Positions 5,483 to 9,882 of a DNA stretch of 12,650 bases are shown piece after piece. This stretch comes from a virus. Lineage: Duplodnaviria; Heunggongvirae; Uroviricota; Caudoviricetes. The position numbers and the translations under genes were made by a program. Below the pieces are notes generated by a model, which saw only the letters and a program-made list of their open reading frames with translations, did not search any database and had not been told where the DNA came from. Positions within the stretch are counted from its first letter, which is position 1, and every line of letters starts with the position of its first letter. Where the stretch lies: the IMG/VR virus record IMGVR_UViG_2850756110_000008; one strand, 5' to 3'.

Positions 5483-7021
5483 TTATTCAGTCGGCAGTGC
5501 TACGCGCCAGGGGAGCAGTTCGCCGACCCGGTTTATCGGCCAGTCGGCTATGACGTCAAGGACATAGCGGAGGTAGCTTTCTGGCTCCACTCCGTTCAGT
5601 TTGCACGTCCCGATCAGGCTGTACAGCAGCGCTCCCCGCTCTCCTCCATGATCCGAACCGAAGAACAGGTAGTTTTTGCGGCCCAGACTGACCATCCGCA
5701 ACGCATTTTCAGCGATGTTATTGTCCGCCTCAGCCCAGCCATCATCTGCATAGTACGTCAGCGCCGGCCACTGGTTCAGGGCGTATGCGAACGCTTTCGC
5801 CAGTTCTGAGTGTCGCGACAGGGTTTTCATCTTTTCACGCAGCCAGCTTTCCAGGGATTTCAGCAGCGGTTTCGTTTTCAACTGACGTTCGGCAAGGCGC
5901 TGCTCCGCCGTCATTCCCCTTATCTCTGCCTCGATGGCGTACAGTTCGCCGATCCGTTTCAGCGCTTCCTCCGTCAGGGCTGACGGGGTGCGAACGTGCA
6001 CATCGTGGATTTTACGGCGGGCGTGAGCCCAACAGGCGGCTTCCGTTATCCGGCCATCCCGGTACAGCTCGTTGAACCCGGCGTATGCATCCGCCTGCAG
6101 TACACCACTGAACCCCGCAAGATGGGTCTGCGGATGGATGCCTTTTCTGTCCGGGCTGTAAGCGAACCACACCGCCGGCGCCAGCGTTGACCCGGCGTTA
6201 CGGTCGTCACGAACGTAGGTCCATAACCGCCCGGTCTTCGTTTTCTTATTGCCTGGCAACAGCACCGGGACAGGCGTGTCATCAGCATGGAGCTTACCGT
6301 CAGTCAGCACATAGTCCTGAAGCGCTTCTTCCAGCGGTGACAGTAGCCGGCAGCATGCATCCACCCAGCCCGACAGCAGTGAACGACTCAGCTCCACGCC
6401 CTGGCGGCCGTACATTTCAGACTGGCGGTACAGCGGGGTGTGCTCTGCATACTTTGAGATCAGCACGCGGGCCAGCAGCCCCGGTCCTGCGATACCCCGC
6501 TCGATGGGCCGTGAAGGCGCGGGGGCCTGCACGATGGCATCGCACTGAGTACAGGCATGCTTTTCACGTACAGTCCGGATAACCCGGAAGACGCTGCGCA
6601 TCAACTCCAGCTGTTCGGCGGCATCCTCACCCGGATAGCTCAGTGAGCCTCCACATTCCGGGCAGCATGACGCTGCCGGCAGCAGCCGTTTTTCATCGCG
6701 GGGGAGTGATTCGGGGAACGGTTTGCGGGTGCGGGTTTGACGCAGCGGGCGCTGCACGGCCGGGTCGTCAACCCGACCGGTAAGGGTATCACTTTCTTTC
6801 TGAAGTGCCTTCAGGTCAGCTTCCATCTGTGCGATACGACGGGAGACTTTTTCGGAGCGGCTGCCGAAGTTCATCCGGCGCAGCTTATCCAGCTGTGCCT
6901 GCAGATGGTCTATTTCGCGTTCACGCTCGTTCAGCTTTTCCAGCAGGGCACGGTTCAGCGCCTCCTGTTCGGCAAGGAGACGTTTCAGTGCATTGATATC
7001 GTCAGGAAGTGAGCTGCTCAT
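5483..7021 (-). CDS. IS66-family transposase (TnpC/orf3)
   Basis: 512 aa with N-terminal coiled-coil/leucine zipper, CxxC...CxxC zinc finger (CPECGG...CTQC) and conserved LHADDTPV and TGRLWTY motifs. Confidence 0.9.
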
Positions 7022-7069
7022 ACCGGGTATATTACCAGGCTCATTCAGCGTCGACCAGGATAAAGAGGC

Positions 7070-7417
7070 TTACAACATAGTCAGGGACGTAAGCAGTCTT
7101 TTAGGCTGCCGCCAGTCGATACCTTCAAGGAGCATCGCCAGCTGTGCCGGTGTGAGGAACACTTTGCCATCCCGGGCTGACGGCCAGGCGAAGCGGCCGC
7201 GCTCCAGCCGTTTGGTCAGCAGACACAGTCCATCGCCGGTAGACCAGAGGAGCTTTACCTGACTGCCATTACGCCCACGGAAGATAAAAACGTGACCTGA
7301 CATCGGATCGTCTTTCAGCGTCGTCTGCACCTTTGCCGCCAGGCCGTTGAAGCCATTTCTCATATCGGTGATACCGGCAACCAGCCAAATTTTGGTCCCG
7401 GAAGGTAACGGGATCAT
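7070..7417 (-). CDS. IS66 Orf2 (TnpB) accessory protein
   Basis: 115-aa protein (…LVAGITDMRNGFNGLAAKVQ…LWSTGDGLCLLTKRLERGRF…) typical of the IS66 orf2 family. ATGA overlap with orf1. Confidence 0.85.
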   Translation of the reverse strand: MIPLPSGTKIWLVAGITDMRNGFNGLAAKVQTTLKDDPMSGHVFIFRGRNGSQVKLLWSTGDGLCLLTKRLERGRFAWPSARDGKVFLTPAQLAMLLEGIDWRQPKRLLTSLTML

Positions 7418-7794
7418 CGCTTCAGTTCCTGTATCAGCAGAGTCAGGAGCTTTTCGCTGACATTGCCATTGAAGCGGAGCGTCCCGTGCCGGAACGTTAC
7501 CTCACAGCTGATACTGAGGGTTTCCGGATCCTCTGCGAGCGATTCTGGCTGTTCGGCAGCTGCATCGAGAGTCACAGGAAGTAGCTGGGGGCTCTCTGAA
7601 GAAGGTAATAGCAGCTTTCCCTCGCGCCATTGTTGTCGCCATTTGAACAACAGATTGGCGTTAATGCCATTTTCAAGAGCAAGTTTTGAGATGGATATCC
7701 CGGGTTCACAGGAGGCAGCAACGAGCTGCTGTTTAAATTCGGGAGGATAATTAGGGCAGCCTTTTCGCCTGCCGGGATTCACATTTTTCTGCAT
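7414..7794 (-). CDS. IS66 Orf1 (TnpA) accessory protein
   Basis: Helix-turn-helix-like small protein in the first position of the IS66 operon. ATG at 7794 (MQKNVNPGRRK…) preferred; the ORF-track start at 7815 is a GTG. Confidence 0.8.
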   Translation of the reverse strand: MQKNVNPGRRKGCPNYPPEFKQQLVAASCEPGISISKLALENGINANLLFKWRQQWREGKLLLPSSESPQLLPVTLDAAAEQPESLAEDPETLSISCEVTFRHGTLRFNGNVSEKLLTLLIQELKR

Positions 7795-7946
7795 ATCTGA
7801 CACTTTGGTTCCCACTACTTATTTGGTGGACACCACTTTGTCTAATTCGTCAGATTCTGACCAGACGGTTCAGGCTGTACGCTGATATGACTTTCCGTGT
7901 CAAACCGGAATCTCTAATTTTGACGATTTTCTTTTTAGGTTTAATT

Positions 7947-8129
7947 CCCTGAGGGCGACGTAGCAGTAAATCCGACGGTGAATCACGCTGATATTCGCGG
8001 GTTGGATACCGCATTACAGAGGTCCGTCATATGAGCCTGCCACTTTCTTACGTCGCGAATCAGCTTTGTTCCGCCGTCGCCAAGCGCTAACGTGGGTTAC
8101 TCTTGTACCGGGCTACGTCGCCTTCAGGG
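7947..8129. ncRNA. Candidate IS110-family bridge-RNA-like structured noncoding element (strand undetermined)
   Basis: An 18-bp inverted repeat (7947-7964 CCCTGAGGGCGACGTAGC; 8112-8129 GCTACGTCGCCTTCAGGG, one G/U-compatible mismatch) encloses 147 nt. Inside, ACGCTGATAT (7985-7994) is identical to the 10 nt spanning the IS66-terminus/IS110-end junction (7879-7888). Confidence 0.3.
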
Positions 8130-8148
8130 AACTGGTTATTCTCATTTT

Positions 8149-9276
8149 TTATTTGTGACATTGTGGTTGTTGTGCGACAGACATTGCTATTCGGCCCATA
8201 TCCCAGATAAAACCCGCCAGCTCACGTGCAACAGCAACAATTGTAATATTGACATTCTTTCCTTTGGCCTGAAGTTTTCGATACCTCTTACAGAGCCTGA
8301 GTTGAGCATCCCATGCTCTGTCAATGACGGGGCGGGGTAAATTTTCCTGCCTTTTTTGTATTGCCGGACTGATGCGTGCCGGATGACGGTAACTCCACGC
8401 TGCCTCGACCAATAGCTTTCTGGCATAGCTGTTTCCGGCTTTGGTAATGCTGCCCTGATGTCTGCTTCCACCCGATGAATATTCTGATGGCGTGATACCA
8501 AACCATGACATCAGTTGTCGTGGATGTTCAAAACGGGTCAGATCACCCAGTTCAGAAATTAATCCAACCGCAGTAATAAACTGAATCCCTCGCATGGCTT
8601 GCAGCGCCTCTACTACCGGATACAGCCTCCATTCGGTAACGGCCTCCTTCAGGGCGGATTCCAGCCGTTCACATTGTGCCTGCCGGTCTTCTATTGTACG
8701 ACGGTGTTCGTCAAAAGCTAATTGTCGCCAGGGACTTTCGAATGAGTATTTGCTGAGCCAGCGTCGGTGTGCAGGGCCCCAATCTGCTCGCCCGACATAA
8801 TGGACCCCATGAACCAGAAGAAACGATTTCAGACGTTGCCTTGCATGCCGTAAATCATCGCGGGCAGATGCCCATGCCCGGGCCAAATCCCGGAATGCCT
8901 CATCTTCAATGCCGGGTACGTAGACAGCAGAAAGATCTCCTGCACGCAGTGAACGCACAAGTCTGATGGCATCACGGCGATCGGTTTTAACCCGCTCCCC
9001 CGGTTTTTTCGGGATAAGTGAGGGGGCGCAGACCATGCAGTCAAAACCGGATTTCACCAGCCGACGATAAAGTCCATAACCACAGGGCCCCGCTTCATAA
9101 ACGATACTGACCTGCGATGACTTTGACCTGAGACGTTTACAAAGATTCTGAATATCAGTAGGTGATGTGCCAATTTTACCCATCAGTTCAACAGGTTCTG
9201 AATTGATAGCATAAGCGACAGTAATCGATTCTTTGTGAACATCTAACCCGACGTACAATGTGTTATTGTTGTTCAT
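8149..9276 (-). CDS. IS110-family transposase / DEDD recombinase
   Basis: 375 aa from the ATG at 9276, with GGAGG 7 nt upstream. N-terminal RuvC-like DEDD motifs (YVGLDVHK, IVYEAG, KTDRRDA) and C-terminal Tnp domain with conserved Ser (GITPSEYSSGGS). The ORF track extends the start to 9324, which lacks an RBS. Confidence 0.85.
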   Translation of the reverse strand: MNNNNTLYVGLDVHKESITVAYAINSEPVELMGKIGTSPTDIQNLCKRLRSKSSQVSIVYEAGPCGYGLYRRLVKSGFDCMVCAPSLIPKKPGERVKTDRRDAIRLVRSLRAGDLSAVYVPGIEDEAFRDLARAWASARDDLRHARQRLKSFLLVHGVHYVGRADWGPAHRRWLSKYSFESPWRQLAFDEHRRTIEDRQAQCERLESALKEAVTEWRLYPVVEALQAMRGIQFITAVGLISELGDLTRFEHPRQLMSWFGITPSEYSSGGSRHQGSITKAGNSYARKLLVEAAWSYRHPARISPAIQKRQENLPRPVIDRAWDAQLRLCKRYRKLQAKGKNVNITIVAVARELAGFIWDMGRIAMSVAQQPQCHK

Positions 9277-9426
9277 GCTGGCCTCCGTGGTGGAAATACC
9301 GGGGGGTAGCAACAGCTCACCCATGCGGCTCTGACAACGATGTTAACCCGCGTTAAATATCCCACGTTGGCCAGCATCTGTCTCACGGAAAGTCATACTG
9401 CCTTACTTTCCAATGGGCACTCATGT

Positions 9427-9882
9427 TTATACGCTGACCTTACAATCAATCACCGCTTTTAAATTTTCAGCATTGCTTCCCTGACGCTTCCACGCGCTGT
9501 AAATATCTTTATCCCACGCTTTACCAGCTTTTGTTTGATAGCCTGCTTCATTGATCCGTTCAGCTATCACACGCCCATTATCAAATCCCTGTTGGATGGT
9601 ATCGGCAATGATCTTTATAACTGCCGTTTCGTTATATGGCTTTGGTGGGATGTTCGGCTTTCCGGCAATAAGCGACGCAGCGGCTTTTTCCATGCGCTCC
9701 ACCAGCCCAAGCATTCGTGAATCAATAGACTTTTCCGGCTGTCCCAGCTTCATGCGAATCGCATCAACAAGCCAGGAGGTTTTATCCCCTCCAGAAGCGA
9801 GAACAGACCGATTAAACTCATCCTGCAATTCAGATGGGATGCGGAACGCGATCAGATTAGATTTGCTCATTGCAAAGACCAT
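9427..9882 (-). CDS. Hypothetical protein, possibly ribbon-helix-helix (Arc-like) DNA-binding at the N-terminus
   Basis: 151-aa protein-like ORF divergent from the PerC-like gene. N-terminus NLIAFRIPSELQDEFNRSVLASGGDKTSWLVDAIRMKL resembles RHH folds. A palindromic operator-like site lies 20-50 bp upstream. Stop is 30 bp from the IS110 end, so the C-terminus may be altered. Confidence 0.5.
   Translation of the reverse strand: MVFAMSKSNLIAFRIPSELQDEFNRSVLASGGDKTSWLVDAIRMKLGQPEKSIDSRMLGLVERMEKAAASLIAGKPNIPPKPYNETAVIKIIADTIQQGFDNGRVIAERINEAGYQTKAGKAWDKDIYSAWKRQGSNAENLKAVIDCKVSV

What the first reader, a model, noticed from the sequence alone, without database searches (positions are those of the whole stretch)
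7887..8148. Candidate bridge-RNA locus in the 262-bp 3' tail of the IS110-family element
The region between the recombinase stop (8149) and the element end has no plausible ORF but is highly structured. An 18-bp inverted repeat (7947-7964 / 8112-8129) forms a perfect stem if transcribed from the plus strand (the single mismatch becomes a G-U pair) and encloses 147 nt. Inside it, ACGCTGATAT (7985-7994) exactly matches the 10 nt spanning the insertion junction at 7879-7888, as expected of a guide segment that encodes target and donor sequences. The 121-bp 5' region (9277-9396) is the alternative location.
Basis: inference. Interest (0 to 1): 0.7.

Follow-up and report, generated by a model that had tools for sequence, protein, structure and literature searches.

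The report
Bridge (seek) RNA gene of ISSso6

Summary
The inverted repeat and the duplicated 10-mer are at the stated coordinates and exceed chance. The element is ISSso6 (IS110 family, IS1111 group), 7884-9401, flanked by a CT core dinucleotide. It sits 3 bp inside the terminal inverted repeat of an IS66-like element.

The 3' non-coding region holds a ~190-nt structured RNA (7942-8135). It is conserved in about 80 related elements down to 50% recombinase identity and always lies downstream of the recombinase gene.

- An internal loop carries two hypervariable segments, 8082-8090 and 8047-8053.
- These co-vary with the DNA flanking each element (0 of 10,000 shuffles as good). This is a target-binding loop like that of IS621.

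G-U counts, family-wide placement and published IS1111 data favour the recombinase-sense (minus) strand, not the plus strand. Durrant et al. 2024 already list ISSso6 with a bridge RNA in its right end. I therefore rate it a new member of a known kind. No left-end donor guide was found, and expression is untested.

The parts
7884..9401 (-). ISSso6 element (IS110 family, IS1111 group), 1518 bp plus one copy of the CT core
   Evidence: RefSeq annotation of identical copies. Boundaries come from 7 independent insertions and an uninterrupted IS66 end.
7882..7883 (.). Core dinucleotide CT (AG in recombinase orientation), right-end copy
   Evidence: The empty site reads ...ACG-CT-TAC. CT is present at both junctions in the window.
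9402..9403 (.). Core dinucleotide CT, left-end copy
8149..9276 (-). Recombinase gene (375 aa, DEDD/RuvC-like plus Tnp domains)
   Evidence: Pfam PF01548 and PF02371. NCBIfam NF033542 'IS110 family RNA-guided transposase', 273.9 bits against a cut-off of 140. The protein is identical to that of L001 and L002.
7942..8135 (-). Conserved structured core of the bridge RNA / seekRNA (~190 nt)
   Evidence: Alignment A2 of 37 distinct homologues. The covariance model R1 finds it downstream of the recombinase gene, on the same strand, in distant homologues.
8112..8133 (-).
   Evidence: 22 pairs. 11 have compensatory changes in A2 and 19 in A3.
7943..7964 (-).
8092..8095 (-). P4 5' strand (CCAC), which closes the target-binding loop; it pairs with 8040-8043 (GUGG)
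   Evidence: CCAC/GUGG in the window, CCGC/GCGG in most relatives, CCUC/GAGG in the distant clade. These are compensatory changes.
8082..8090 (-). Guide A, UUAGCGCUU (5' side of the loop). It is complementary to the recombinase-sense top strand of the target: last left-target base + core + 6 nt of the right flank.
   Evidence: Hypervariable block. Its reverse complement matches the right-end flank at 137/186 positions, against 56.8 +/- 7.1 in shuffles (0/10,000). The core positions co-vary as well. An unbiased MI scan recovers columns 58-61. It matches the insertion site in locus L004 at 9/9 and the window site at 6 Watson-Crick + 1 G-U.
8055..8080 (-). P5 (GCGA 8077-8080 / UCGC 8055-8058) and the P6 hairpin that separate the two target guides
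   Evidence: All P5 and P6 pairs show compensatory changes in A3.
8047..8053 (-). Guide B, ACGUAAG (3' side of the loop). It is identical to the top strand: 5 nt of the left flank + core AG, so it would pair with the bottom strand. Two variable nt follow at 8045-8046.
   Evidence: 76/115 matches to left-end flanks against 36.3 +/- 4.9 in shuffles (0/10,000). The MI scan recovers columns 145-147.
7997..8012 (-). P7 hairpin (GCGG-UAUCCAAC-CCGC), immediately 5' of guide C
   Evidence: 99-100% of cells paired; one pair has compensatory changes.
7987..7994 (-). Guide C, AUAUC-AG-C: right-end donor guide (5 nt) + core + one handshake nucleotide.
   Evidence: AUAUCAG matches right ends ...CATATC-AG, and AUGAGAG matches right ends ...CATGAG-AG in the L090/L091 clade. 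The next base equals the first flanking base in 17/20 pairs (1/10,000 shuffles). The following two bases do not co-vary (9/40).
7962..7968 (-). UACUGCU, a possible left-end donor guide in the multiloop (tentative)
   Evidence: Complementary to the left-end top strand AG(N)CAGTA with a one-base bulge. It is constant in the window clade, does not co-vary and is absent from the distant clade.
7886..7899 (.). Subterminal inverted repeat, right end (partner 9384-9397)
   Evidence: 14 bp, perfect. The inner bases co-vary between the two ends across the family.
9384..9397 (.). Subterminal inverted repeat, left end
7898..7903 (-). Conserved TTGACA (-35-like) facing out of the right end. After circle formation it would lie 17 bp from CAGTAT in the left end.
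   Evidence: Nearly invariant across the right-end alignment (a few rows vary by one base). The junction-promoter role is inferred from Siddiquee et al. 2024.
7860..7881 (.). Target DNA: inner part of the terminal inverted repeat of an IS66-like element (tnpA/tnpB/tnpC at 5483-7815). Its last 3 bp (TAC) are displaced to 9404-9406.
   Evidence: An uninterrupted copy reads ...GGCTGTACGCTTAC. IS66 genes identified by NCBIfam.

Best explanation
The 265-nt right-end non-coding region of ISSso6 encodes the element's bridge RNA (seekRNA). It is read on the same strand as the recombinase gene, which is the window's minus strand.

Structure (shown). One arm (P3-P4-loop-P5-P6) carries a target-binding internal loop.

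Target guides (shown by covariation).
- The 5' strand of the loop, UUAGCGCUU (8082-8090), would pair with one DNA strand across the core and 6 nt of the right half of the target.
- The 3' strand, ACGUAAG (8047-8053), would pair with the other strand across the left half and the core.
- Together they specify GTA-AG-CGCTAA, which is the tip of IS66-family terminal inverted repeats (GTAAGCG...).

Donor guide (shown by sequence match and covariation). A further single-stranded segment, AUAUCAG (7988-7994), would pair with the element's own right end plus the core. The next base (7987) pairs with the first target base that becomes joined to that end, as a handshake guide does in IS621.

Inferred by analogy with IS621 and ISEc11, not shown here. 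The DEDD/serine recombinase bound to this RNA brings the circularised element (right end-AG-left end junction) together with the target and exchanges strands at the AG/CT core. The window copy is inserted at a sub-optimal version of that target (6 Watson-Crick + 1 G-U of 9 for guide A, 6 of 7 for guide B). RNA expression, processing, protein binding and left-end recognition are not shown.
For: Identity and ends.

Conserved RNA. Alignment A2 covers 37 distinct homologues. The covariance model finds the RNA in the 50%-identity clade at E 1e-9 to 1e-25 (weaker partial hits aside), always on the recombinase strand and downstream of the gene.

Structure.
- A2: 96.5% of cells paired; 20 pairs with compensatory change against 5.0 +/- 1.4 in shuffles.
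- A3: 95.1% paired; 33 of 46 pairs compensatory; sliding the 3' partner by 1-3 columns drops pairing to 34-44%.

Guides.
- Permutation tests give 0/10,000 for guide A (6 non-core nt), for its core positions, and for guide B.
- An unbiased mutual-information scan recovers the same columns with the expected polarity.
- Guide C tracks the right-end sequence across clades.
- The handshake base matches in 17/20 pairs.

Strand.
- 102 G-U cells against 46 A-C cells.
- Mismatches at the guides lean towards sense-strand wobbles, 17 against 9.
- IS1111 seekRNAs co-purified with the transposase and mapped downstream of tnp. The top-strand match lies 5' of the bottom-strand match, as here (PMC11187229).

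Literature. Durrant et al. Supplementary Table 5 lists ISSso6 as 'Detected Bridge RNA End: RE; group IS1111'. The same paper notes that many IS1111 RNAs carry their donor-binding bases in a multiloop.
Against: There are no expression, RNA-end or RNA-protein data for ISSso6. The simple scans found no promoter or terminator next to the RNA.

No left-end donor guide could be shown. UACUGCU (7962-7968) fits only with a bulge and does not co-vary.

Stem X (8024-8028 / 7974-7978) has almost no compensatory change (one cell in A3).

One conserved A-C mismatch in P1 would be a G-U pair on the opposite strand.

Rfam 15 has no matching family, even at E <= 10, so no curated model confirms the call.

Alignment A3 was fitted to the model, which inflates its pair counts somewhat.
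Confidence: 0.88

Rival explanations
1. The same locus makes the functional RNA from the plus strand, antisense to the recombinase gene, as the first reader hinted from the G-U in the 18-bp stem.
For: The plus strand folds as well as the minus strand (z = -4.6). The conserved P1 mismatch (A2 columns 13/203) is A-C on the minus strand and G-U on the plus strand in 30 of 37 sequences. Guide-to-flank complementarity alone cannot tell the strands apart.
Against: G-U cells valid only on the minus strand outnumber A-C cells 102 to 46. They are spread over 17 pair positions against 8. Paired cells are 96.5% for the minus strand and 93.2% for the plus strand. The window copy has three minus-only G-U pairs. 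The RNA sits just downstream of the recombinase gene, in the same orientation, in every clade. Published IS1111 seekRNAs map downstream of tnp with the same 5'-to-3' order of guides.
Confidence: 0.06
2. The inverted repeat acts at the DNA level or as a plain 3' UTR element, for example a recombinase-binding site, a cruciform, or an mRNA terminator or stabiliser, with no guide function. The 10-mer would then be a chance or junction-derived duplication.
For: No promoter was found for a separate RNA. IS1111 elements do use subterminal inverted repeats as DNA signals.
Against: G-U-tolerant compensatory changes in seven helices point to RNA, not DNA. Two hypervariable loop blocks track the flanking DNA of each element, with 0/10,000 shuffles as good; no terminator or protein-site model predicts that. 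There is no U-run after P1 on the minus strand.
Confidence: 0.03
3. This copy is a decayed relic: the RNA family is real, but the window copy is not functional.
For: The window's target matches guide A only partly, at 6 Watson-Crick + 1 G-U of 9. Relics do exist: L010 is a lone RNA without a recombinase gene, L009 is truncated and lacks the RNA, and L007/L008 are frameshifted.
Against: The RNA core is identical to that of four other E. coli copies at different sites, and the recombinase protein to two of them (one difference in a third), with an intact ORF and intact ends. One genome carries 16 copies, which argues for recent activity.
Confidence: 0.03

Closest known systems
seekRNA / bridge RNA of IS1111-group elements (ISEc11, ISPa11, ISKpn4; Siddiquee et al. 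2024, PMC11187229; ISPa11 and others in Durrant et al. 2024, Fig. 6 and Extended Data Fig. 10)
   Same: The RNA lies in the long non-coding region downstream of the recombinase gene. Subterminal inverted repeats are present (14 bp here). Two short segments are complementary to opposite strands of the target and overlap at the crossover, with the top-strand match 5' of the bottom-strand match. An outward-facing -35 box in the right end could form a junction promoter. Each element has its own specific target. The likely donor-binding bases lie outside the target-binding loop, partly in a multiloop.
   Different: The recombinase is 375 aa, against 330-350 aa for typical IS1111 members, and only about 17-25% identical to the other IS compared in the published identity matrix. 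The RNA core is about 190 nt and enclosed by a 22-bp stem, whereas the 'peak' seekRNAs are 82-96 nt. Sequence-level homology to those RNAs was not tested here, and no RNA has been detected experimentally for ISSso6.
IS621 bridge RNA (IS110 group; Durrant et al. 2024, PMC11208160; Hiraizumi et al. 2024, PMC11208158)
   Same: An internal loop whose 5' strand (9 nt, ending in the core CU) and 3' strand (ending in the core AG and followed by variable bases) read opposite strands of the target. The core dinucleotide is CT/AG. A donor guide ends in AG and is followed by a base that co-varies with the target, as a handshake guide does. The short ATA...TAT flanking the donor is mirrored here by the CATA/TATG repeat tips.
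   Different: The RNA is at the right end and points out of the element, so the guide frame is inverted relative to the recombinase gene. The two arms are enclosed by a long closing stem instead of being two consecutive stem-loops. No simple donor-binding internal loop and no clear left-end guide were found. The subterminal repeats are long.
IS elements that target other mobile elements: IS4321/IS5075 (terminal repeats of Tn21-family transposons) and ISEc21 (a conserved site in IS3-family transposase genes)
   Same: The preferred target is a conserved sequence inside another transposable element. Here it is the GTAAGCG... tip of IS66-family terminal inverted repeats, seen at 4 of 7 distinct E. 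coli sites.
   Different: The target family and the sequence differ. I did not find the IS66-end preference of ISSso6 described in the searched literature.

Membership tests
IS110-family RNA-guided recombinase system (bridge RNA / seekRNA) | Recombinase with an N-terminal DEDD RuvC-like domain and a C-terminal Tnp (PF02371) domain | tested here: met
   PF01548 (E 2.4e-11) and PF02371 (E 8.1e-24). NCBIfam equivalog NF033542 'IS110 family RNA-guided transposase', 273.9 bits against a cut-off of 140.
IS110-family RNA-guided recombinase system (bridge RNA / seekRNA) | Conserved structured non-coding RNA in one non-coding end of the element | tested here: met
   The covariance model is recovered in about 80 homologues. 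33 of 46 pairs are compensatory and 95-96% of cells are paired.
IS110-family RNA-guided recombinase system (bridge RNA / seekRNA) | A loop with two segments complementary to opposite strands of the target, overlapping at a core dinucleotide and co-varying with the target | tested here: met
   Guide A scores 137/186 and guide B 76/115, both 0/10,000 shuffles as good. The core positions co-vary (55/62).
IS110-family RNA-guided recombinase system (bridge RNA / seekRNA) | Segments complementary to both halves of the donor (the circle junction) | tested here: inconclusive
   A right-end guide is present and tracks the end sequence (AUAUCAG or AUGAGAG). A left-end guide was not demonstrated.
IS110-family RNA-guided recombinase system (bridge RNA / seekRNA) | The RNA is expressed, binds the recombinase and is required for transposition | not testable with these tools
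   Needs RNA-seq, co-purification and transposition assays.
IS1111 group | Subterminal inverted repeats of 7-17 bp with short terminal extensions | tested here: met
   A 14-bp perfect repeat at 7886-7899 / 9384-9397, with extensions of 2 bp (right end) and 4 bp (left end) before the core.
IS1111 group | The long non-coding region, with the RNA, lies downstream of the recombinase gene; the left end is short | tested here: met
   The right-end non-coding region is 265 nt and the left end 125 nt. Listed as RE / IS1111 by Durrant et al..
IS1111 group | Recombinase related over its full length to IS1111-type enzymes (330-350 aa) | tested here: inconclusive
   The protein is 375 aa. Durrant et al. 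place it in the IS1111 group. The published identity matrix shows only about 17-25% identity to other IS. No phylogeny was run here.
Rfam RNA families | Match to a curated covariance model | tested here: not met
   No hit at the gathering threshold in the whole window, and none at E <= 10 in 7860-8200. No Rfam family matches this RNA.

The most novel reading that the evidence does not exclude
The recombinase 5' UTR in the left end carries a motif, CGCGGGUUAGC (9345-9352 on the minus strand), that is perfectly complementary over 8-10 nt to the bridge RNA strand UAACCCGCG. That strand closes the target-binding loop. The motif changes in parallel with it in the distant clade (CGAGGGUU with AACCCUCG, P4 partner GAGG). 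The same 5' UTR also has a conserved, co-varying stem that buries the ribosome-binding site and the AUG. If the left-end motif really pairs with the bridge RNA, in cis within a full-length transcript or in trans, it would couple recombinase translation or RNA processing to the folding state of the guide RNA. I did not find such a regulatory layer described in the bridge-RNA/seekRNA papers I consulted.
Probability: 0.2. Interest if true: 0.5.

Novelty: new member of a known kind. Interest (0 to 1): 0.3.

Why it matters
It gives a base-level map of a natural bridge RNA from a deep, little-studied branch of the IS1111 group. The map covers the ends, the CT core, the closing stem, two target guides, one donor guide and a handshake base. 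Only a table entry existed before.

It explains why ISSso6 copies in E. coli and Shigella sit at the tips of IS66-family elements, and it predicts which sites are at risk (GTA-AG-CGYTAA).

The family alignment holds 26 distinct target guides with matching flanks. That is a ready-made natural reprogramming series for anyone engineering IS1111-type recombinases.

It does not change the understanding of the system as a whole.

Tried and rejected
- Rfam 15 found nothing, either at the gathering threshold on the whole window or at E <= 10 on 7860-8200.
- Folding energy cannot choose the strand, because both strands fold equally well.
- Simple promoter and terminator scans found nothing next to the RNA.
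- The left end (9277-9401) as an alternative RNA site is rejected. The covariance model hits only the right end, and the left end looks like a 5' UTR with a stem that buries the ribosome-binding site.
- The full 10-mer as a guide is rejected. Bases 9-10 (GU, 7985-7986) are conserved whatever the target (9/40 matches, below the chance level of 13).
- A handshake role for the two bases after guide B is unsupported in the window clade. They match the left end only in the distant clade, where they do not vary.
- The left-end donor guide was sought with a mutual-information scan and a fuzzy search. These gave only clade-level correlations, plus a constant UACUGCU that needs a bulge and is absent from distant relatives.
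- The E. coli variants at about 95.6% identity (H11-H15) are not re-targeted elements. The one inspected (L009) is truncated by another IS and lacks the RNA.
- The lone right-end copy (L010) is a deletion relic in an IS66 end, not a mobile RNA-only module.

Full report
**Observation.** The region is as described.
- The repeat finder reports arms 7945-7964 / 8112-8131, 20 nt with one mismatch and 147 nt between them. It also reports the direct 10-mer ACGCTGATAT at 7879-7888 and 7985-7994.
- The 10-mer occurs only twice in the window, against 0.03 expected by chance.
- The recombinase ORF is on the minus strand at 8149-9276. It carries the DEDD_Tnp_IS110 and Transposase_20 domains and passes NCBI's equivalog model 'IS110 family RNA-guided transposase'.

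**Identity and ends.** Megablast against complete E. coli genomes finds near-identical copies annotated as ISSso6, including 16 in one genome.
- Seven independent insertions share sequence only between ...CTGATAT and ...ACTGCCTTAC.
- The window's left flank is the end of an IS66-like element (tnpA/tnpB/tnpC at 5483-7815).
- An uninterrupted copy of that end reads ...GGCTGTACG-CT-TAC. The window reads ...ACG-CT-[GATAT...ACTGC]-CT-TAC.
- So the element is 7884-9401 and CT is the duplicated core (AG in recombinase orientation). The insertion lies 3 bp inside the IS66 terminal repeat (GTA|AG|CG...).
- Three other site groups (L001, L003, L005/6) have homologous IS66-type left flanks but unrelated right flanks. 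That is expected if the target is the IS66 tip.
- The 14-bp subterminal repeats are 7886-7899 and 9384-9397.

**Literature.** Durrant et al. 2024 list ISSso6 in Supplementary Table 5 as 'Detected Bridge RNA End: RE; IS110 Group: IS1111'. They note that IS1111 RNAs often hold their donor-binding bases in a multiloop. Siddiquee et al. 2024 showed three things for ISEc11, ISPa11 and ISKpn4: the RNA maps downstream of tnp, it co-purifies with the transposase, and it carries a top-strand match 5' of a bottom-strand match. No paper in the library describes the ISSso6 RNA itself.

**Comparative data.** The protein family is large, with 73-95% identity in Enterobacteria and Burkholderiaceae. A genome scan returned 80 loci, including a clade at about 50% identity. 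Aligning the right-end non-coding regions of the ISSso6 clade shows a strongly conserved ~190-nt core. It is interrupted by two hypervariable blocks and a variable triplet.

**Structure.** I defined seven helices.
- P3, P4, P5 and P6 form one arm.
- 'Stem X' and the P7 hairpin form the other arm.
- On 37 distinct sequences, 96.5% of cells pair and 20 pairs show compensatory change, against 5.0 +/- 1.4 in shuffles.
- A covariance model built from this alignment finds the RNA in the distant clade at E 1e-9 to 1e-25 (weaker partial hits aside), always downstream of the recombinase gene and on its strand.
- On the wider, model-fitted alignment, 33 of 46 pairs are compensatory and 95.1% of cells pair. 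Sliding the partners drops pairing to 34-44%.
- Stem X has essentially no compensatory support and remains provisional.

**Guides.** The two hypervariable blocks are the two strands of the internal loop between P4 and P5.
- The reverse complement of block A (window UUAGCGCUU, 8082-8090) equals [last left-flank base]-[core]-[first six right-flank bases] of each element. The score is 137/186 non-core matches, against 56.8 +/- 7.1 in shuffles, and the core positions also track the flank (AA against AG).
- Block B (window ACGUAAG, 8047-8053) equals the five left-flank bases plus the core: 76/115 against 36.3 +/- 4.9.
- No shuffle in 10,000 reached either value.
- A blind mutual-information scan of all RNA columns against all flank positions recovers exactly these columns, with the expected complement or identity polarity.
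- For ISSso6 the guides spell GTA-AG-CGCTAA. The E. coli sites match guide A at 9/9 (L004), 8+1 G-U (L003), 7+1 (L001), 7 (L002) and 6+1 (the window).

**The 10-mer.** In recombinase sense it reads AUAUC-AG-CGU.
- AUAUCAG is constant wherever the right end is ...CATATC-AG. It becomes AUGAGAG where the right end is ...CATGAG-AG, so it is a donor (right-end) guide.
- The next base equals the first flanking base in 17 of 20 non-redundant pairs (1/10,000 shuffles). This behaves like the IS621 handshake guide.
- The last two bases do not co-vary (9/40). In the window they match by coincidence.
- Viewed in the frame where the core reads CT (the window's plus orientation), guide A ends in CU. Guides B and C end in AG followed by variable bases. 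That is the IS621 rule for left and right guides.

**Strand.** Guide complementarity cannot decide the strand. Four lines favour the recombinase sense.
1. G-U cells valid only on that strand number 102, at 17 pair positions. Pairing is 96.5% against 93.2%.
2. The window copy itself has three such G-U pairs.
3. Guide mismatches lean towards sense-strand wobbles, 17 against 9, which is weak.
4. Placement is constant across clades, and the published IS1111 experiments agree.

**What remains open.**
- No left-end donor guide was demonstrated.
- There is no promoter, terminator or expression evidence.
- Rfam holds no matching family.

**Verdict.** This is a real, well-supported bridge RNA / seekRNA gene of ISSso6. 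It is already flagged at table level in the literature and is mapped here in detail. I rate it a new member of a known kind, of moderate to low interest.

Noticed in passing
window 9345-9352 (minus strand CGCGGGTT) versus 8092-8099 and 7997-8004: The left-end / 5' UTR motif CGCGGGUUAGC is perfectly complementary over 8-10 nt to the bridge-RNA sequence UAACCCGCG. That sequence occurs twice, just before guide A and just before guide C. 23 of about 35 loci show 8 nt or more of perfect complement. In the distant clade the left end has CGAGGGTT and the RNA has AACCCTCG, a parallel change. The motif can also form its own local hairpin.
   Followed up: partly
window 9270-9380 (minus strand; recombinase 5' UTR): A conserved long-range stem GCUGGCC...GGCCAGC(AUG) would bury the Shine-Dalgarno GGAGG and the start codon. 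It shows compensatory changes in relatives: GCUAGCC/GGCUAGC in L037 and GCUGACC/GGUCAGC in L055 ([I1], 77).
   Followed up: partly
window 5483-7881 plus 9404-9406: An IS66-like element (tnpA 7414-7815, tnpB 7070-7417, tnpC 5483-7021, all on the minus strand) has its terminal inverted repeat split by ISSso6. The outermost 3 bp (TAC) are displaced 1.5 kb away, which probably disables that end.
   Followed up: yes
window 7898-7903 (minus strand TTGACA): A nearly invariant -35-like hexamer at the inner edge of the right subterminal repeat faces outward. In the circle it would lie 17 bp from CAGTAT in the left end, matching the junction promoter reported for other IS1111 and IS110 elements.
   Followed up: partly
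L010 2001-2284 (E. coli JML285; also hit H38): A lone right-end non-coding region with a complete RNA (158 bits, 90% identity) but no recombinase gene. It is again inserted in an IS66-type end. The gene is deleted 18 nt upstream of its stop codon, so this is a relic and not an RNA-only module.
   Followed up: yes
L009 (E. coli STEC435; hits H11-H15): ISSso6-like copies at about 95.6% identity match only from window position 8069 onward. In L009 another IS has cut off the right end, so the copy has no bridge RNA and a frameshifted recombinase gene.
   Followed up: partly
L076 2550-2743 and 2928-3121 (Desulfosarcina MAG): Two identical-scoring copies of the RNA lie in tandem downstream of one recombinase gene.
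   Followed up: no
L019, L023, L025, L028 (Paraburkholderia) junctions: In this sub-group the right junction has core AA and the left junction AG, while guide A encodes AA (UU in the RNA). This suggests that a one-base core mismatch between donor and target is tolerated.
   Followed up: no
window 9427-9882 (minus strand ORF, 151 aa): The gene next to the insertion on the other side has no NCBIfam match. It is annotated 'hypothetical protein' in a genome that carries this flank without ISSso6 or IS66.
   Followed up: no
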